Below, in pieces: positions 2,643-36,200 of a stretch of 41,062 nucleotides of DNA. The DNA lies in IMG/VR virus record IMGVR_UViG_2939177367_000003, positions 1 to 41,062 of that record; one strand, 5' to 3'. Every line of letters begins with the position of its first letter. The stretch's first letter is position 1. Origin of the DNA: a virus (Duplodnaviria > Heunggongvirae > Uroviricota > Caudoviricetes). The position numbers were made by a program, and so were the translations under genes. The notes below the pieces were generated by a model, which saw nothing but the letters and a program-made list of their open reading frames with translations, did not search any database and had not been told where the DNA came from.

Positions 2643-2985
2643 CTAGTAGTCATTGAACCAAATAAAAAGCATGAATATGGCACTTAGAGTATTAATCAAT
2701 CGATTACTATACAATCACTAACTCGTTTAACCAGAATTTATTACACTGCGTTATTATTTGTTTCTGAAATTTTTATTATGAGTCCCCCCATCAATTCTCT
2801 GTAAGAGAGTATGTGTATCAAGTAGTAGAATGAATTAACAATCAGCAGGCAGATCACTAGCTAAAATTTATGCAATCAAGCGTCAAAATGTATTATATAT
2901 TTACCAGCCATCTGGTATTCTTACCAAGATCCCCTTAGAATAATCAATAAATTTAATTTTTATTTAAAATATGTAGGCACTACTT

Positions 2986-4020
2986 ATGAGAAATGAAAAA
3001 ATTGATTTTTTAAGATTTCTTGGACTATCACTTATTGTGCTGGCTCATGTTAATCCGCCGTTAATAATTTCACAACTTAGAAATTTTGATGTACCATTAA
3101 TGTTTTTAGTTATGGGAATGTCTTTTTTCATAACTGAGTCAAGGCATACATCAACCTTTAACTACATAGCATCTAGGTTTAAACGGCTTGTAATTCCAAC
3201 ATGGTTTTTTTTCTCGTGTTTTTACATTGTTAGCGAGCTAATCTGGATGTATCAGGGACATTCAGAGTTTAAATACAGTGCAGGAACAATTGCTGCAACT
3301 TTTGCTTTATCTACCGGCATAGGTTATGTATGGGTAATAAGAATTTTTTTTAGTGTATCTATTTTAGCCATACTAACACCCAAATCAATATTAAACGCTT
3401 CCATTTATAAAATAACGTTCCTATCATTCGGCTTTATTATATTAAATACGTATTTCCTATCTTCTTTTTACGAATCTTTAGATGTAAATATAAGAGCTCT
3501 TGAAATAGGAACATTTATATCAAGCACCGCGGTTTATTTATGCGTATTTCTTATTGGATATAAGATATTACAGGAAGACAGAAATTCTATAATATTTATC
3601 TTATTTATAAGCGGTGTTATTTTTACAGTTGTGATGTCGTATTTGATGACACGAGAGGGTCACTTCATTCCTACTCAAGAAGATAAATATCCACCTGGAA
3701 TTTACTATATTTCATTTGCAATATTTATGTCTTTAGCATTTTTTGTGACTTCAGAAAAACTCATAAAAGCATTAAGCTACTCAAAATTATGGGGAATAGT
3801 GATGTTCATTTCATCAAATTCAATCTGGATTTATTTATGGCATATTGCTTTCATCGTTAACATAATAAATTTAAATATTAATTTCATGTTTAAATATATA
3901 CTTGTTTACTCATTTTCTATTGCTATTGTATTTATACAGGTTAAGCTAATTAAAAGCATAACCTCCACAATCAAAGATGATAGAAAGTCAAAGATTTTGA
4001 ATCAAATTTTTACAGGTTAA
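2986..4020 (+). CDS. Integral-membrane acyltransferase (acyltransferase-3 family), putative O-antigen/LPS acetyltransferase
   Basis: N-terminal KIDFLRFLGLSLIVLAHV motif (IDxLRxxxxxxxxxH), about 10 predicted transmembrane segments, very AT-rich gene with AT-rich upstream region; position next to int/gtrA is typical for serotype-conversion genes. Confidence 0.5.
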   Translation: MRNEKIDFLRFLGLSLIVLAHVNPPLIISQLRNFDVPLMFLVMGMSFFITESRHTSTFNYIASRFKRLVIPTWFFFSCFYIVSELIWMYQGHSEFKYSAGTIAATFALSTGIGYVWVIRIFFSVSILAILTPKSILNASIYKITFLSFGFIILNTYFLSSFYESLDVNIRALEIGTFISSTAVYLCVFLIGYKILQEDRNSIIFILFISGVIFTVVMSYLMTREGHFIPTQEDKYPPGIYYISFAIFMSLAFFVTSEKLIKALSYSKLWGIVMFISSNSIWIYLWHIAFIVNIINLNINFMFKYILVYSFSIAIVFIQVKLIKSITSTIKDDRKSKILNQIFTG

Positions 4021-27439: not shown

Positions 27440-27477
27440 TTAAAACGCAAAAAGCCCCGAGCTATTAACTCAGGGCT
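27440..27477 (-). terminator. tR'-like terminator of the short pR' leader transcript
   Basis: Hairpin AGCCCCGAG / CTCAGGGCT followed on the minus strand by UUUUUGCGUUUU. Confidence 0.5.
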
Positions 27478-27512
27478 TTATTTAACGAGTGCATTTATCC
27501 ATCGTTAGGTCA

Positions 27513-27541
27513 AATTTACCCAACTTTATTCAAAAAGTCAA
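27513..27541 (-). promoter_or_regulatory. Late promoter pR' (-35 TTGACT, 17-bp spacer, -10 TAAATT)
   Basis: Minus-strand sequence ATATTGACTTTTTGAATAAAGTTGGGTAAATTTGAC matches the lambda pR' region as recalled; lies between Q and S. Confidence 0.6.
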
Positions 27542-27583
27542 TATTATGCCGTTAATATGTTGCCATCCGTGGCAATCATGCTG

Positions 27584-28207
27584 CTAACGTGTGACCGCGT
27601 TCAAAATGTTGTCTGCAATTGACTCTTCCTTGTGGCATTGCACCACCAGAGCGTCATACAGCGGCTTAACAGTGCGTGACCAGGTGGGTTGAGTAAGGTT
27701 TGGGATTAGCATCGTTACAGCGCGATATGCGGCGCTTGCTGGCATTCTTGAATAGCCGACACCTTTGCATCTTCCGCACTCTTTCTCGACAACTCTCCCC
27801 CACTGCTCTGTTTTGGCAATATCAACCGCCCGACCTGTACCGTGGCAATCCCTGCATCTTGCGCCCGGCGTCGCGGCACTACGGCAATAATCCGCATAAG
27901 CGAATGTTGCGAGCACTTGCAGTACCTTTGCCTTAGTATTTCCTTCAAGCTTTGCCACACCACGGTATTTCCCCGATACCTTGTGTGCAAATTGCATCAG
28001 ATAGTTGATAGCCTTTTGTTTGTCGTTCTGGCTGAGTTCATGCTTACCGCAGAATGCAGCCATCCCGAATCCGGCCTGTGATTGTGCCATCCCCATAGCA
28101 GCCATCACATCAGTACCGGAAAGAGAGTCAGAAGCCGTAGCCCGTGGTGAGTCGCTCATCATCGGGCTTTTTGGCGAATGAAATTTAGCTACGCTTTCGA
28201 GTCTCAT
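27584..28207 (-). CDS. Q: Late-gene antiterminator Q (lambda Q-type)
   Basis: Translation MRLESVAKFHSPKSPMMSDSPRATASDSLSGTDVMAAMGMAQSQAGFGMAAFCGKHE... matches lambda Q, including zinc-binding Cys cluster. Confidence 0.9.
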   Translation of the reverse strand: MRLESVAKFHSPKSPMMSDSPRATASDSLSGTDVMAAMGMAQSQAGFGMAAFCGKHELSQNDKQKAINYLMQFAHKVSGKYRGVAKLEGNTKAKVLQVLATFAYADYCRSAATPGARCRDCHGTGRAVDIAKTEQWGRVVEKECGRCKGVGYSRMPASAAYRAVTMLIPNLTQPTWSRTVKPLYDALVVQCHKEESIADNILNAVTR

Positions 28208-30688: not shown

Positions 30689-30722
30689 CTCCCCCAAATA
30701 AAAAGGCCTGCGATTACCAGCA
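30689..30722 (-). terminator. tR2-like rho-independent terminator between replication and nin genes
   Basis: Minus-strand hairpin CAGGCCTGC-TGGTAATC-GCAGGCCT followed by UUUUUAUUU. Confidence 0.6.
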
Positions 30723-30756
30723 GGCCTGTTATTAGCTCAGTGATGTAGATGGTCAT

Positions 30757-32744: not shown

Positions 32745-33605
32745 TCACCTGTCGAAAAACACGTAGCCAGTTTTCGATACGGTGATTGCGGATGATGGTT
32801 TGGATTGTGGTTGAATAGTTTCTGGCTTCTCGTCGTTCCAGCGTTGACCGTTCAGGTAGCTCGATGGTAACAACCTGTCGAATCCGAACTGCTTACCATT
32901 CCTGCATGCGATGTCTTCTGCCAGCATCGTGGCAAACTCGCTTGCCGTACCCCTGGTAGTTTTACGCCATTCCCTGAACTGTGTTCTGAATGCTGAAGCT
33001 GCGTTTTTCTTCCCGGCTTTCCGCATGCCTGCACACCAGAATATTTCCTCGAATGCCTTGTCGGTTTCTTCGTGACGGTCAGATGATTTTTCACACTCCG
33101 TCCGAACACTTTCGGACATAGTGTTTTTATTATTTCTTTTTTCTTTTGTAATAGTTTCTTTTGTGTGTCCCTGTTTTGGTGACAGCGCTGTCACCGTTTT
33201 GGTGACACTTTTTGTCACCAATGTAGTGACATTATCACCAGAGTAGTGACACCCTTCGATTTGCCATTCCTCGATGTTCTTGTTAGGCCCGATTTGCTGG
33301 CCTTCGCGAAGGATAACCTTCATCGCGATAAGCTCATTCTTGGCCTTGTTTACCTTCTGTCTTGGCAGCCTGGTAATTTGAGCTAACTGACTATCAGAGA
33401 TGCGATCCATCTTTTTACCGTAGCCGTATGTTTTACGGCATATGGCGTGGGCAACCTTGCTCTGATTTTTCGTTAAATCTGCGCCGATAAGCTCTTCATA
33501 CAGGGCATTTGCAAGACGGGTATAACCATCTTCAACTTCTGCCACACGACGCTCCACAGGCCGTTGTGAAGGCCTTAAATGTGTTACGGTTGCAAGATTA
33601 CTCAT
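32745..33605 (-). CDS. Replication initiator protein, lambda O-like N-terminal domain
   Basis: [49 protein letters not shown] matches the replication protein O N-terminal family; iterons inside the gene. Confidence 0.7.
33116..33255. repeat. Candidate origin of replication: AT-rich tract plus iterons inside the O-like gene
   Basis: AT-rich 33116-33170; perfect 18-bp palindrome GGTGACAGCGCTGTCACC (33178-33195); four or more further GTGACA/TGTCAC repeats at ~10-13 bp spacing. Confidence 0.5.
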
Positions 33606-33744
33606 GACCTTTCTCCTTCTGCATCAGCTTCACCTTTTCCAACTCAGCCCGGAATCGACCAGGCTGCTTGAAGCTGGACAGGAAGCGATCACGTAGTATG
33701 TGTTTGTGAATTTTGTCCTGGTAAGGACTGAGTTGTTTTGTCAT
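33598..33744 (-). CDS. Small ORF (48 aa) between cII and the O-like gene
   Basis: ATG preceded by AGGAG RBS; stop overlaps the O-like start; not in the supplied ORF track (below length cutoff). Confidence 0.3.
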
Positions 33745-33776
33745 AATTACTCCTGTGGATTGATCCAGTAATTCCC

Positions 33777-34073
33777 TCAGAATTGCATATCAATTTGCTT
33801 AAAATCCTCGGTGGCGGCCGGGGATTTTTTCTTTGTGATTTCATCAAGCGCATACTTAAAAGCCCTGCTAATCGGACTGATGTCTGATGCCATTCCGAAA
33901 GCACACAAGACCGAAGCAATAAATCTCCAGTCCGTTCTGCTTATCTTCGATTCATGACAGCCAATCATCTTTGCCAGACCGCGCTGGGTAAGCGTTGACA
34001 GGTTGATGAGTAAATCAGTTTCAGCGCGATCAATTTCTCGCTGTGTTGGCTTGCTGTAGCTTGCTTGTGCCAT
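33777..34073 (-). CDS. cII: CII-like transcriptional activator
   Basis: C-terminus [19 protein letters not shown] parallels lambda CII TNKKRPAATERSEQIQMEF; central SKISRTDW vs SQISRWKRDW. Confidence 0.7.
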
Positions 34074-34141
34074 TTGTTAATTTTCCTATATTGATATTGA
34101 GTTATAGCGGCACACCCAATGGATTTGCCGCTGATGTTTGC

Positions 34142-34182
34142 TCACCCGGTTAGAGGTGAAAGGCCAGAACTGTTAAAGAGCA
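34142..34182 (-). promoter_or_regulatory. nutR-like site (boxA plus boxB hairpin) downstream of cro
   Basis: Minus-strand boxA TGCTCTTTAACAG (34170-34182), then hairpin UCACC-UCUAACCG-GGUGA (34142-34159). Confidence 0.5.
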
Positions 34183-34188
34183 ATTTGC

Positions 34189-34374
34189 TTATGCCGCTTG
34201 GCGGTAAGCACTTTCTTGATACTTCAGGGCGCCAGCTGTAACGATTTCCAATCGATAGGCGTCTTTCTCTGGGATAACTTCTTTCCACTGAGAGACTGCT
34301 GCATCGCTAATGCCTAGTGCTTTAGCAACAGCACGCTGGGTTCCGAAGTGGTCAATAACATCTTTTTTGTACAT
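34189..34374 (-). CDS. cro: Cro repressor (HTH)
   Basis: 61 aa; HTH QRAVAKALGISDAAVSQW; divergent from the repressor gene. Confidence 0.75.
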   Translation of the reverse strand: MYKKDVIDHFGTQRAVAKALGISDAAVSQWKEVIPEKDAYRLEIVTAGALKYQESAYRQAA

Positions 34375-34388
34375 AGACTCGCTCCGAA

Positions 34389-34454
34389 ATTAAAGAACAC
34401 TTAAATTATCCACCAAAGGAATCTTAAGTCAAGTTTATTTAAGATGTCTTAACT
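34389..34454. promoter_or_regulatory. OR operator region with PR promoter (P22-type 18-bp operators)
   Basis: Sites ATTAAAGAACACTTAAAT (34389-34406) and ATTTAAGATGTCTTAACT (34437-34454) fit ANTNAAG-N4-CTTNANT; PR on minus strand: -35 TTGACT (34427-34432), 16-bp spacer, -10 GATAAT (34405-34410). Confidence 0.6.
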
Positions 34455-35105
34455 ATGAATACACAACTGATGGGTGAGCGTATTCGCGCTCGCAGAAAAG
34501 AACTCAAGATTAGGCAGGCTGCCCTTGGCAAGATGGTTGGCGTGTCTAATGTTGCTATTTCCCAATGGGAGCGATCTGAAACTGAGCCCAATGGCGAAAA
34601 CCTATTGGCCTTAGCCAAGGCTTTGCAGTGCTCCCCTGATTACCTGTTGAAAGGAGAGGATAGTCTTTCAAACATTGCCTATCACAGCAGGCATGATCCA
34701 AGAGGTTCGTATCCTCTAATTAGTTGGGTAAGCGCAGGATGTTGGATGGAAGCTGTAGAGCCATATCATAGGCGTGCAATAGATAACTGGTACGACACAA
34801 CGGTAGATTGTTCTGAAGACTCTTTTTGGCTCGACGTTAAAGGCGATTCAATGACTGCCCCGGCAGGACTGAGTATTCCTGAGGGGATGATTATTCTCGT
34901 CGACCCAGAAGTCGAACCACGTAATGGAAAGCTGGTAGTCGCCAAACTTGAAGGGGAAAACGAGGCGACATTCAAAAAGTTAGTTATTGATGCCGGTAGA
35001 AAATTCCTGAAACCACTCAATCCACAATACCCAATGATTGAAATCAATGGGAACTGTAAAATCATTGGCGTTGTCGTTGATGCCAAGCTAGCAAACCTTC
35101 CTTAA
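34455..35105 (+). CDS. c2: Prophage repressor, P22 C2-type (HTH plus LexA-like S24 autopeptidase domain)
   Basis: Translation MNTQLMGERIRARRKELKIRQAALGKMVGVSNVAISQWERSETEPNGENLLALAKALQCSPDYLL... matches P22 C2 as recalled. Confidence 0.9.
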   Translation: MNTQLMGERIRARRKELKIRQAALGKMVGVSNVAISQWERSETEPNGENLLALAKALQCSPDYLLKGEDSLSNIAYHSRHDPRGSYPLISWVSAGCWMEAVEPYHRRAIDNWYDTTVDCSEDSFWLDVKGDSMTAPAGLSIPEGMIILVDPEVEPRNGKLVVAKLEGENEATFKKLVIDAGRKFLKPLNPQYPMIEINGNCKIIGVVVDAKLANLP

Positions 35106-35129
35106 GGGGCTTTCGCCCCTTTTTTATTT
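35104..35129 (+). terminator. Rho-independent terminator after repressor gene
   Basis: AGGGGC-TTTC-GCCCCT hairpin followed by TTTTTTATTT, starting at the stop codon. Confidence 0.65.
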
Positions 35130-35168
35130 CCCGTTAAAAATCAAAGACAAACTAAATTCACGCCCATA

Positions 35169-35224
35169 AAATTAAGTTTTCTTCAAAAATGCACTTGACC
35201 AATAAATTAAGAAGTCTTAAATTT
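35169..35224 (+). promoter_or_regulatory. OL operators with PL promoter
   Basis: Operator-consensus sites AATTAAGTTTTCTTCAAA (35169-35186) and AATTAAGAAGTCTTAAAT (35205-35222); -35 TTGACC (35195-35200), 17-bp spacer, -10 TAAATT. Confidence 0.5.
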
Positions 35225-35268
35225 AAGCCATCAGCAGGACGCTGGAAGCCAAACGGAACAGATTGGCA

Positions 35269-35309
35269 GGCTCTTTAACATCGACGGACTCTCAACCTAA
35301 CCGTTGAGA
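35269..35309 (+). promoter_or_regulatory. nutL-like site (boxA plus boxB hairpin)
   Basis: boxA GCTCTTTAACA (35270-35280) close to rrn/lambda boxA; 9 nt later hairpin UCUCAAC-CUAACC-GUUGAGA (35290-35309); loop motif CUAACC shared with nutR. Confidence 0.5.
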
Positions 35310-35419
35310 CCAGAACTTGAGTGGTTTTGGGGATGGCGCGAATTGCAGCTGCAAGACAGCGATCGAGAGGATAAGCACCTTGACGCGTCATGCGCCAAAG
35401 CCACTTAAAGGAGACCATC

Positions 35420-35725
35420 ATGGTAACCATTGTCTGGAAAGAATCCAAAGGTACGGCAAAAAGCCGCTACAAAGCTCGCAGAGCAGAACTTATTGCCGAG
35501 CGACGCAGTAATGAAGCACTGGCGCGAAAAATTGCGCTAAAGCTCTCTGGTTGCGTCAAAGCAGACAAAGCAGCATCACTAGGAATCCTTTGCTGCAAGA
35601 AGAAAGAAGAAGTCGTTCGAAAAAATAGAAGTATTTATTACAAAGATTCAACCCCATTAGGAAACAAAATACATGCAGTCCAAAAAATAAAATTGTACAG
35701 TAAACTACCGTACGGTGCTTATTGA
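35420..35725 (+). CDS. N-like transcription antiterminator (arginine-rich motif)
   Basis: N-terminal ARM KSRYKARRAELIAERR resembles lambda N (RRRERRAEKQAQW) and P22 gp24 (KTRRHERRRKLAIER); AGGAG RBS; first gene after PL/nutL. Confidence 0.6.
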   Translation: MVTIVWKESKGTAKSRYKARRAELIAERRSNEALARKIALKLSGCVKADKAASLGILCCKKKEEVVRKNRSIYYKDSTPLGNKIHAVQKIKLYSKLPYGAY

Positions 35726-36066
35726 GTATGCTTATGGTGAAAAAGACTATTTATGTTAATCCTGACCGCGGACAAAACAGAAAAGTATCTGATAGAGGTC
35801 TTACATCTCGAGACAGGAGGAGAATAGCGAGATGGGAAAAGAGGATAGCATATGCATTAAAAAACGGTGTAACACCTGGATTTAATGCTATAGATGACGG
35901 TCCTGAATATAAGATTAATGAAGACCCAATGGATAAAGTTGACAAAGCATTAGCAACACCATTTCCTCGCGATGCCGAAAAAATTGAAGATGAAAAATAT
36001 GAGGATGTAATGCACAGAGTTGTTAATCACGCTCACCAACGAAATCCAAATAAAAAATGGTCATAG
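35722..36066 (+). CDS. Hypothetical protein (basic N-terminus, acidic C-terminus)
   Basis: 114 aa ORF translationally coupled to the N-like gene; no recognisable motif. Confidence 0.3.
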   Translation: MSMLMVKKTIYVNPDRGQNRKVSDRGLTSRDRRRIARWEKRIAYALKNGVTPGFNAIDDGPEYKINEDPMDKVDKALATPFPRDAEKIEDEKYEDVMHRVVNHAHQRNPNKKWS

Positions 36067-36089
36067 CCCACTTCGGTGGGTTTTTTATT
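36066..36089 (+). terminator. Rho-independent terminator
   Basis: CCCAC-TTCG-GTGGG hairpin followed by TTTTTTATT. Confidence 0.6.
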
Positions 36090-36200
36090 GTCTGAACAAA
36101 CCTAATTTACTACCGCAAGCCACGCAGTGAAATGGGTGTGACTTGTGTTGGTCGCCAGAAAATGAAATTAGGCAGCAAACCACTGTATGAGGGGTGATCT

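What the first reader, a model, noticed from the sequence alone, without database searches (positions are those of the whole stretch)
34142..35309. nutR / nutL pair with a shared boxB loop motif, plus an N-like protein
Both leftward (after cro) and rightward (after PL) transcripts contain a boxA-like element (TGCTCTTTAACAG / GCTCTTTAACA) followed 9-10 nt later by a hairpin whose loop contains CUAACC. The first PL gene encodes a protein with an arginine-rich motif like lambda N and P22 gp24. This supports N-type antitermination with a boxB specificity different from lambda (GAAAA loop).
Basis: partly seen in the sequence, partly recalled or inferred. Interest (0 to 1): 0.45.

Follow-up and report, generated by a model that had tools for sequence, protein, structure and literature searches.

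The report
Phage 21-type N/nut antitermination system
The two hairpin sites and the small arginine-rich protein are real, but they are the long-known N/nut transcription antitermination system of coliphage 21, copied base for base into this mosaic prophage, so the finding is correct and ordinary.

Summary
The window holds exactly two exact copies of GCTCTTTAACA (boxA). Each is followed 9-10 nt later by a 7-bp hairpin with a CUAACC loop. One lies after cro on the - strand (nutR) and one after PL on the + strand (nutL). They are the only such hairpins in 41 kb (shuffles: mean 0.04). A 71-nt stretch around nutR is 100% identical to Escherichia phage 21, and the 246-nt PL-nutL leader is about 99% identical; that record annotates these elements as boxA-L/R and nutL/nutR. 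Residues 8-29 of the 101-aa protein match 22/22 the phi21 N peptide solved bound to its CUAACC boxB (PDB 1NYB). Comparative data support a co-inherited module: 63 of 64 viral contigs with this nutL boxB encode the same arginine-rich motif (ARM). Phages N7 and CUS-3 keep the same repressor, cro and boxA but swap both boxB sites and the ARM. One twist lies outside the finding. From about codon 65, N follows an HK022-type nun cassette, made of an alternative N tail, the nun gene and a terminator. A leftover phage-21-type N 3' end lies downstream. This arrangement is already deposited in phage mEp235. Novelty: already known; interest low.

The parts
34405..34432 (-). PR-like promoter (TTGACT-16-GATAAT) driving cro, nutR, cII, O and the primase-helicase
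   Evidence: its position corresponds to the OR/PR region of the phage 21 record
34189..34374 (-). cro (P22/21 type, 61 aa)
   Evidence: Pfam P22_Cro, E = 5.7e-28
34171..34181 (-). nutR boxA, GCTCTTTAACA
   Evidence: exact match; identical to phage 21, where the corresponding element is annotated boxA-R
34141..34160 (-). nutR boxB hairpin UUCACCU-CUAACC-GGGUGAG (loop 34153->34148)
   Evidence: corresponds to the annotated nutR stem_loop of phage 21
33777..34073 (-). cII-like activator, the first gene past nutR and the tR1 region
   Evidence: Pfam Phage_CII, E = 2.7e-33
30704..30727 (-). predicted intrinsic terminator after the primase-helicase gene; a likely target of N read-through on the way to the nin-type genes and Q
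   Evidence: 8-bp stem with 6 GC pairs, then TTTTTATTT; function inferred
34455..35105 (+). prophage repressor (P22 c2 / phage 21 cI type)
   Evidence: Pfam HTH_3 plus Peptidase_S24
35195..35223 (+). PL-like promoter (TTGACC-17-TAAATT)
   Evidence: identical sequence in phage 21, where OL1 and the pL start are annotated
35270..35280 (+). nutL boxA, GCTCTTTAACA
35290..35309 (+). nutL boxB hairpin UCUCAAC-CUAACC-GUUGAGA (loop 35297-35302)
   Evidence: corresponds to the annotated nutL stem_loop of phage 21
35420..35725 (+). N antiterminator, 101 aa. Residues 1-46 are identical to phage 21 N (ARM at residues 8-29). Residues from about 65 to 101 are a divergent tail shared with mEp235.
   Evidence: PHROG 271, E = 1e-29
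36065..36082 (+). predicted intrinsic terminator after nun; the first terminator a PL transcript meets
   Evidence: AGCCCAC-TTCG-GTGGGTT, then TTTTATTG; function inferred

Best explanation
This is the N/nut processive antitermination system of coliphage 21 (imm21 region), carried by a mosaic prophage. Transcripts from PL (+ strand) and PR (- strand) each contain a nut site, made of a linear boxA (GCUCUUUAACA) and a boxB hairpin with a CUAACC hexaloop 9-10 nt downstream. N is the first PL gene. Its N-terminal arginine-rich helix (residues 8-29) binds boxB. BoxA recruits NusB/NusE, and with NusA and NusG the complex stays on RNA polymerase. That makes the polymerase resistant to downstream terminators: the Rho-dependent tR1 region before cII, the predicted intrinsic terminator at 30727-30704 before the nin-type genes and Q, and the terminator at 36065-36082 after nun. 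Shown here: the presence, positions and identity of the RNA elements and of the ARM, and their co-inheritance. Taken from published work on phage 21 and lambda: ARM-boxB binding (PDB 1NYB) and the Nus-dependent mechanism. Inferred: that this chimeric N, with its different C-terminal tail, is active, and which terminators it overrides.
For: A 71-nt stretch around nutR is 100% identical to phage 21 OL657228. The 246-nt PL-nutL-leader is about 99% identical (3 mismatches). That record annotates boxA-R, nutR, boxA-L, nutL, the pL start and tR1. N residues 8-29 match PDB 1NYB chain A 22/22. The RNA of 1NYB is the phi21 boxB with a CUAACC hexaloop (PMC12550061; PMC6061696). The two sites are the only boxA-plus-CTAACC-hairpin combinations in the window. 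Stems differ at all 7 pairs between nutL and nutR while the loop is identical. In IMG/VR, 63 of 64 loci with this nutL boxB and enough downstream sequence encode an N with KGTAKSRYKARR. The rest of N varies there through at least four C-terminal types. N7 and CUS-3 have the same c2/cro type and the same boxA. Both of their boxB sites are changed to CCCGCCGAAAUGCGGG and N residues 1-32 to a different ARM, while N residues 33 onward stay phage-21-like. PA28 carries the 21-type boxB and ARM with a different repressor and cro. Gene order is lambdoid: O, cII, nutR, cro, OR, cI, PL, nutL, N, with Q, PR' and tR' downstream. The same N variant (96% identical) is in the isolated phage mEp235.
Against: The last 37 or so residues of N differ from phage 21 N; by analogy with lambda N this is the RNA polymerase-contacting part. 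Pfam N_peptide scores below its gathering cut-off (18.3 against 27.9 bits), and no Rfam family matches. In longer RNA context the boxB folds are not thermodynamically exceptional, and nutL has a slightly more stable competing fold. Terminators are consensus predictions only.
Confidence: 0.95

Rival explanations
1. The nut sites and N are an inactive relic. The nun cassette replaced the polymerase-binding C-terminus of N, so antitermination no longer works and the prophage is cryptic or relies on other means.
For: From about codon 65, N diverges from phage 21 N, and a displaced phage-21-type N 3' end lies downstream of nun. One IMG/VR locus carries a truncated 77-aa N.
Against: The same tail (96% identical N) is present in the isolated phages mEp235, mEpX1 and Kapi1. 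It occurs in 31 of 63 IMG/VR loci with intact ORFs. The tail keeps the motifs RKN..YY.K, G and QKIKL.SK.P that are shared with the lambda and phage 21 N C-termini. P22 and L gp24 proteins with unrelated C-termini are reported as interchangeable (PMC8022706). Both nut sites are free of any mutation relative to phage 21.
Confidence: 0.04
2. The hairpins are not N targets. They would be ordinary transcript structures, such as terminators, RNase III sites or chance inverted repeats, next to a fortuitous boxA-like word.
For: The fold z-scores in 56-61 nt context are not significant, and Rfam has no match.
Against: Neither hairpin is followed by a U-tract, and neither appears in the terminator scan. 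The boxA-plus-hairpin combination occurs only at the two canonical nut positions. The sequences are identical to annotated phage 21 nut sites. The loop matches the RNA solved in complex with the identical peptide. BoxB type and ARM type switch together in N7 and CUS-3.
Confidence: 0.01
3. The system has P22 (gp24) or lambda specificity rather than phage 21 specificity, because the repressor and cro are P22-like.
For: cro hits Pfam P22_Cro, and mEp235 annotates the repressor as similar to P22 C2.
Against: The P22 boxB sequences (GCGCUGACAAAGCGC and CCGCCGACAACGCGG) and the lambda ones (GCCCUGAARAAGGGC) differ from the window's. Only GCTCTT of boxA is shared. gp24 and lambda N are 21% and 23% identical to this N. 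No lambda-type boxB is found in the window at up to 2 mismatches.
Confidence: 0.01

Closest known systems
Coliphage 21 (phi21) N protein with nutL/nutR (imm21 region; OL657228; PDB 1NYB, N peptide-boxB complex)
   Same: BoxA, spacer and boxB of both nut sites are identical base for base, as are PL and the leader (3 mismatches in 246 nt). N residues 1-46 are identical, including the whole ARM. The cI, cro and cII context is the same (97.5% identity over the segment shared with phage 21).
   Different: N residues from about 65 to 101 are replaced by a different tail (78% overall identity). nun follows N instead of ral. Replication genes (O plus a primase-helicase fusion) and late genes (SfII/SfV-like myovirus) are different modules.
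Enterobacteria phage mEp235 (JQ182731) and relatives mEpX1 and Kapi1
   Same: The 2.4-kb cII-cro-cI-nutL-N-nun segment is 99.3% identical. N is 96% identical, with the same nun-linked tail. N and Nun are already annotated there, and boxA is marked as 'putative Nut boxA'.
   Different: The rest of the genome differs, since mEp235 is a Hendrixvirinae siphovirus. The mEp235 record does not annotate boxB.
Lambda N/nut and P22 gp24/nut
   Same: The architecture is the same: promoter, boxA, short spacer, boxB hairpin, an N with an N-terminal ARM (A..R...RR aligned), and sites after PL and after cro. The boxA core is GCTCTT. The mechanism is as reviewed in PMC8632103.
   Different: The boxB loops differ: GAAAA/GAAGA pentaloops in lambda and GACAA-type loops in P22, against the CUAACC hexaloop here. 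ARM sequences differ, and overall identity is 21-23%.
HK022 Nun (neighbouring gene, not part of the finding)
   Same: ORF 35728-36066 is 107/109 identical to PDB 6ALG chain N. Its ARM is 26/26 identical to 1HJI. The upstream region that O276 annotates as the nun promoter is conserved.
   Different: In HK022, nun follows putL and only a fragment of an N 3' end. Here it follows an intact N with phage 21 specificity.

Membership tests
Lambdoid N/nut antitermination, phage 21 specificity class | A linear boxA element (GCUCUUUAACA, the NusB/NusE site) 5' of boxB in both early transcripts | tested here: met
   Exact 11-mer at 35270-35280 (+) and 34181-34171 (-), and nowhere else in the window. Identical to the phage 21 sequence, where the corresponding elements are annotated boxA-L and boxA-R.
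Lambdoid N/nut antitermination, phage 21 specificity class | A boxB hairpin with a CUAACC hexaloop a short spacer downstream of boxA | tested here: met
   7-bp stems with a CUAACC loop, at spacers of 9 and 10 nt. The CUAACC hexaloop is that of the phi21 boxB in PDB 1NYB (PMC12550061).
Lambdoid N/nut antitermination, phage 21 specificity class | An N protein with the phi21 arginine-rich motif at its N-terminus | tested here: met
   Residues 8-29 match 1NYB chain A 22/22. Residues 1-46 are identical to phage 21 N.
Lambdoid N/nut antitermination, phage 21 specificity class | Canonical positions: nutL between PL and N, nutR between cro and cII | tested here: met
   ORF map, Pfam assignments and promoter scan. 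The layout is the same as in the annotated phage 21 record.
Lambdoid N/nut antitermination, phage 21 specificity class | Central and C-terminal N regions that contact NusA and RNA polymerase | tested here: inconclusive
   The central region (residues 33-63) is nearly identical to phage 21 N. The tail from about residue 65 diverges but keeps the RKN..YY.K and QKIKL.SK.P motifs. The same tail occurs in the isolated phage mEp235. Binding cannot be tested here.
Lambdoid N/nut antitermination, phage 21 specificity class | [quoted passage not shown] | tested here: inconclusive
   Consensus intrinsic terminators at 36065-36082 (+) and 30727-30704 (-). A Rho-dependent tR1 cannot be predicted with these tools. 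Read-through was not tested.
Lambdoid N/nut antitermination, phage 21 specificity class | N- and Nus-dependent antitermination activity | not testable with these tools
   This needs reporter assays and nus mutant hosts.
Pfam PF25694 N_peptide | A score at or above the gathering cut-off (27.9 bits) | tested here: not met
   18.3 bits, E = 0.0033, over residues 4-53. PHROG 271 'anti-termination protein N-like' matches at E = 1e-29. The shortfall concerns this Pfam model, not identity with phage 21 N.
Lambda-specificity nut (GNRA-like GAAAA/GAAGA boxB) | A boxB of the form GCCCUGAARAAGGGC | tested here: not met
   No match at up to 2 mismatches. Aligned against lambda nut sites.
P22 gp24/nut specificity | A P22-type boxB (GCGCUGACAAAGCGC or CCGCCGACAACGCGG) and the gp24 ARM | tested here: not met
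   The boxB sequences are different, and gp24 is 21% identical to this N.
HK022 Nun termination factor (adjacent ORF 35728-36066) | The Nun ARM plus the C-terminal polymerase-arresting segment ending in ...HQRNPNKKWS | tested here: met
   107/109 identical to 6ALG chain N, 26/26 identical to the 1HJI peptide, and C-terminal residues identical. PHROG 5632, E = 1.7e-70.

The most novel reading that the evidence does not exclude
N and nun may form one mobile module here. The last 37 or so codons of this N travel with nun and contain what the O276 record annotates as the nun promoter. On this reading, a phage-21-specific antiterminator and a lambda-specific terminator are physically interlocked. 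HK022, which has putL, an N 3' fragment and nun, would then descend from such an N-nun phage after losing nutL and the 5' part of N. A more speculative extension: the nun-linked N tail could be co-adapted with Nun, since both C-termini act on RNA polymerase.
Probability: 0.35. Interest if true: 0.3.

Novelty: already known. Interest (0 to 1): 0.1.

Why it matters
For the finding itself it matters little. It re-identifies from raw sequence a well-characterised regulatory system, with phage 21 N/nut specificity and a solved peptide-RNA structure. The system is widespread: 1114 of 5426 complete E. coli genomes match the PL-nutL-N segment. It has practical value for annotation, because all eight top-listed RefSeq matches label the feature under this segment 'hypothetical protein', and most phage records do not mark boxB. 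The comparative set gathered here gives a clean natural illustration that ARM and boxB are exchanged as a matched pair. In that set, 63 of 64 loci show ARM/boxB co-occurrence, and N7 and CUS-3 show a module swap. The N-nun chimera is a small evolutionary curiosity.

Tried and rejected
- Rfam, gathering thresholds, whole window: no family matched, so there is no curated model for these nut sites.
- Pfam N_peptide: below its cut-off.
- Folding of 56-61 nt contexts: z-scores of -0.23 and +0.08. Thermodynamics alone does not single the sites out; only the isolated hairpins do.
- Covariation across homologues: this was hoped for from the IMG/VR pattern scan, but the nutL stem is invariant. The nutR stem has only one common variant. 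In it, G->A makes a C.A mismatch, and two base changes extend the helix at its base. The structural evidence therefore rests on the nutL-versus-nutR comparison and on the published complex.
- Unrelated pattern hits: many of the hits had 0-3 bp stems. Several share a conserved CCATGAACGACTAACC stretch, probably coding. These were set aside.
- Papers not held in the library: Cilley & Williamson 2003 (PMC1370434), King et al. 2000 (PMC94296) and Cocozaki et al. 2008 (PMC2446750). Their content is cited second-hand or from my own knowledge.
- Literature searches swamped by unrelated words: one with 'Nun' and one with 'nutL'/'nutR'. PMC3177189 contained none of the boxA strings searched for.
- Large protein databases, structure prediction and the metagenome scan: not used, because direct identity to phage 21 and to PDB entries settled the question.

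Full report
**Observation**

The region 33.7-36.1 kb is a lambdoid immunity region, inverted relative to the lambda map.

| Strand | Feature | Coordinates |
|---|---|---|
| - | O-type replication protein | 32745-33605 |
| - | DUF2740 ORF | 33598-33744 |
| - | cII | 33777-34073 |
| - | P22-type cro | 34189-34374 |
| + | LexA-like repressor | 34455-35105 |
| + | 101-aa ORF (N) | 35420-35725 |

The promoter scan places PR at 34432-34405 (-) and PL at 35195-35223 (+).

The exact word GCTCTTTAACA occurs twice in 41 kb, at 34181-34171 (-) and 35270-35280 (+).

- After the - strand copy, 10 nt downstream, lies UUCACCU-CUAACC-GGGUGAG (34160-34141).
- After the + strand copy, 9 nt downstream, lies UCUCAAC-CUAACC-GUUGAGA (35290-35309).

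Folded alone, both form the expected 7-bp hairpin with a hexaloop. Energies are -7.6 and -8.0 kcal/mol, with z = -2.7 and -5.6.

A script found that these are the only CTAACC-loop hairpins with a stem of at least 6 bp on either strand. In 300 dinucleotide shuffles the mean count was 0.037, and one shuffle reached two.

The two stems share no base pair at any of the 7 positions, yet both pair, and the loops are identical. This is the signature of a selected structure with a sequence-specific loop.

One caveat applies. In 56-61 nt contexts the folds are not exceptional (z about 0). At nutL, the spacer UCGACGG can pair with CCGUUGA, giving a fold 0.9 kcal/mol better than the boxB fold. BoxB pair probability is about 0.42 at nutL and 0.83-1.0 for the nutR core.

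**Identity**

Megablast of 33700-36100 against phage records gives two key matches.

- mEp235: 99.3% identity over the full length.
- Phage 21, lambda imm21 and DE3: 97.5% identity over window 33734-35642.

The curated phage 21 record (OL657228) annotates boxA-R, a nutR stem-loop, tR1, OR1-3, OL1-3, the pL start, boxA-L, a nutL stem-loop and the 'antiterminator'. Alignment shows 71/71 identity around nutR and 3 mismatches in 246 nt from PL to the N start codon. None of those mismatches is in boxA, the spacer or boxB.

The annotated phage 21 stem-loops map exactly onto 34142-34159 and 35290-35309.

The protein is identical to phage 21 N over residues 1-46 and 78% identical overall. Residues 8-29 (ESKGTAKSRYKARRAELIAERR) match 22/22 the only chain of PDB 1NYB, 'Probable regulatory protein N'.

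1NYB is the phi21 N peptide-boxB complex of Cilley and Williamson 2003. Its RNA loop is the CUAACC hexaloop (PMC12550061; PMC6061696).

PHROG 271 'anti-termination protein N-like' matches at 1e-29. Pfam N_peptide is below its threshold, and Rfam has no model that matches.

**Comparative support for function**

A pattern scan of IMG/VR (boxA, 14-19 nt, CTAACM) returned 120 stretches of DNA. The genuine nut sites among them fall into a few near-identical variants.

- The nutL stem is invariant; only the spacer varies.
- nutR has a CUAACA loop variant.
- nutR also has a variant with a C.A mismatch plus two base changes that extend the base of the helix.

Of 64 loci with the 21-type nutL boxB and enough downstream sequence, 63 encode an N that carries KGTAKSRYKARR. 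The remainder of N ranges over several unrelated middle and C-terminal types, including a P22 gp24-like tail.

Conversely, phages N7 and CUS-3 have the same c2/cro type and the same boxA. In them, both boxB sites are CCCGCCGAAAUGCGGG and N residues 1-32 are a different ARM, while N residues 33 onward stay phage-21-like.

PA28 carries the 21-type boxB and ARM next to a 933W-type cro and a different repressor.

So boxB and ARM move together, independently of immunity type and of the rest of N.

Alignment with the annotated nut sites and N proteins of lambda and P22 shows only two shared features: GCTCTT of boxA and the A..R...RR skeleton of the ARM.

**Mechanism**

The mechanism rests on established knowledge of lambdoid N systems, reviewed in PMC8632103. 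From my own knowledge I add Franklin 1985 and Lazinski et al. 1989 on the N/nut specificities of lambda, 21 and P22.

- The N ARM binds the nascent boxB.
- BoxA binds NusB/NusE.
- With NusA and NusG, the complex rides on RNA polymerase and suppresses pausing and termination.

Candidate targets in the window are:

- the tR1 region between nutR and cII, which is Rho-dependent and therefore not predictable here;
- an intrinsic terminator at 30727-30704 (-), after the primase-helicase gene and before the Q gene (27584-28207, Pfam Antiterm, 1.3e-57);
- an intrinsic terminator at 36065-36082 (+), after nun.

These assignments are inferences.

**What lies beyond the finding**

From about 35608-35616, the N gene stops following phage 21 and starts following HK022 and O276. 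The next ORF (35728-36066) is HK022 Nun. It is 107/109 identical to PDB 6ALG chain N, and its lambda-boxB-binding ARM is 26/26 identical to 1HJI.

The O276 record annotates a nun promoter (-35 ATGCAG, -10 TACAGT). These correspond to window 35673-35678 and 35696-35701, inside the N coding tail, and the sequence is identical there.

After nun and its terminator, a second, displaced copy of the phage-21-type N 3' end follows (36105 to about 36197). It starts at ATTTACTAC, the same I-Y-Y codons as 35633-35641 in the live gene.

The window has no lambda-type boxB, so Nun should not act on its own phage. Nun's function and its prophage expression are taken from PMC5386594.

The arrangement is not unique. 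mEp235, mEpX1, Kapi1, PA28 and many Stx1a phages have it, as do 31 of 63 IMG/VR loci. mEp235 already annotates both N and Nun.

Whether the nun-linked tail alters N activity is untested. The report that P22 and L gp24 are interchangeable despite unrelated C-termini (PMC8022706), together with the existence of mEp235 as an isolated phage, argues that the tail is functional.

**Context and verdict**

The left 25 kb of the window is an SfII/SfI/SfV-like myovirus structural module with a gtr locus. The right part is a patchwork of mEp043, Sf101 and HK022-like early genes.

The PL-nutL-N segment matches 1114 of 5426 complete E. coli genomes. In 229 of them the match covers at least 80% of the segment.

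The system is the already characterised phage 21 N/nut system, so novelty is nil and interest is low.

Noticed in passing
window 35728-36066 (+): The gene immediately after N is HK022-type nun. It is 107/109 identical to PDB 6ALG chain N, and its lambda-boxB-binding ARM is 26/26 identical to 1HJI. The prophage therefore carries both a phage-21-specific antiterminator and a lambda-specific transcription arrest factor. No lambda-type boxB exists in the window.
   Followed up: yes
window 35608-35725 (+); promoter hexamers 35673-35678 and 35696-35701: Homology to HK022/O276 begins inside N, at about codon 63. HK022 therefore carries a fragment of an N 3' end upstream of nun. The nun promoter annotated in O276 (ATGCAG / TACAGT) lies, with identical sequence, inside this N's coding tail.
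   Followed up: partly
window 36105-36197 (+): A displaced second copy of a phage-21-type N 3' end (YYRKPRSEMGVTCVGRQKMKLGSKPL...) lies after nun and its terminator. It starts at ATTTACTAC, matching ATTTATTAC at 35633-35641 in the live N gene. The N-tail, nun and terminator block looks like a cassette inserted into an ancestral phage-21-type N.
   Followed up: partly
L005 (phage N7) 566-621 and 1696-1750; L006 (CUS-3) equivalent positions: This is a natural specificity swap. The c2/cro type and boxA are the same as in the window. Both boxB hairpins are CCCGCCGAAAUGCGGG, and N residues 1-32 are a different ARM (MTVVITYLADDNARNRRRARRQAQREQ...), while N residues 33 onward stay phage-21-like.
   Followed up: partly
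L007 (phage PA28) about 1049 (-) and 2808-3146 (+): PA28 and the Stx1a phages carry 21-type nut sites with a 933W-type cro. Their nutR loop is CUAACA instead of CUAACC. Their N reads 11 residues further, into the nun start region (...PYGLIEYAYGEKDYLC).
   Followed up: no
IMG/VR loci such as L012, L025, L037 (nutR variants): A common nutR variant, GCUCACCU-CUAACC-GGGUAAGC, has a C.A (or A.A) mismatch in mid-stem. It also has two changes that add C-G and G-C pairs at the base of the helix.
   Followed up: no
window 35281-35307 (+): The nutL spacer UCGACGG can pair with CCGUUGA, which comprises the last two loop bases and the 3' arm of boxB. The resulting fold is 0.9 kcal/mol more stable than the boxB fold in a 61-nt context. 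Spacer variants in relatives would weaken it.
   Followed up: partly
window 1-24700 and 27451-28207: The late region is an SfII/SfI/SfV-like myovirus module with a gtr O-antigen modification locus (about 97-98% identity). The lambdoid late switch is present: Q at 27584-28207 (-), a PR'-like promoter at 27541-27513 and a strong terminator at 27479-27451.
   Followed up: partly
window 33801-33828 (+): A terminator-like hairpin lies antisense to the 3' end of cII. This is the position of the oop RNA terminator in lambda and P22 (the P22 annotation is).
   Followed up: no
window 33170-33265: A cluster of repeated GTGACA / TGTCACC words lies inside the O gene. It looks like origin iterons, by analogy with the gpO-binding iterons annotated inside O in phage 21.
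   Followed up: no
E. coli RefSeq genomes (hits H93-H100): In all eight top-listed genomes the feature under the PL-nutL-N segment is labelled 'hypothetical protein'. The segment matches 1114 of 5426 complete E. coli genomes.
   Followed up: no
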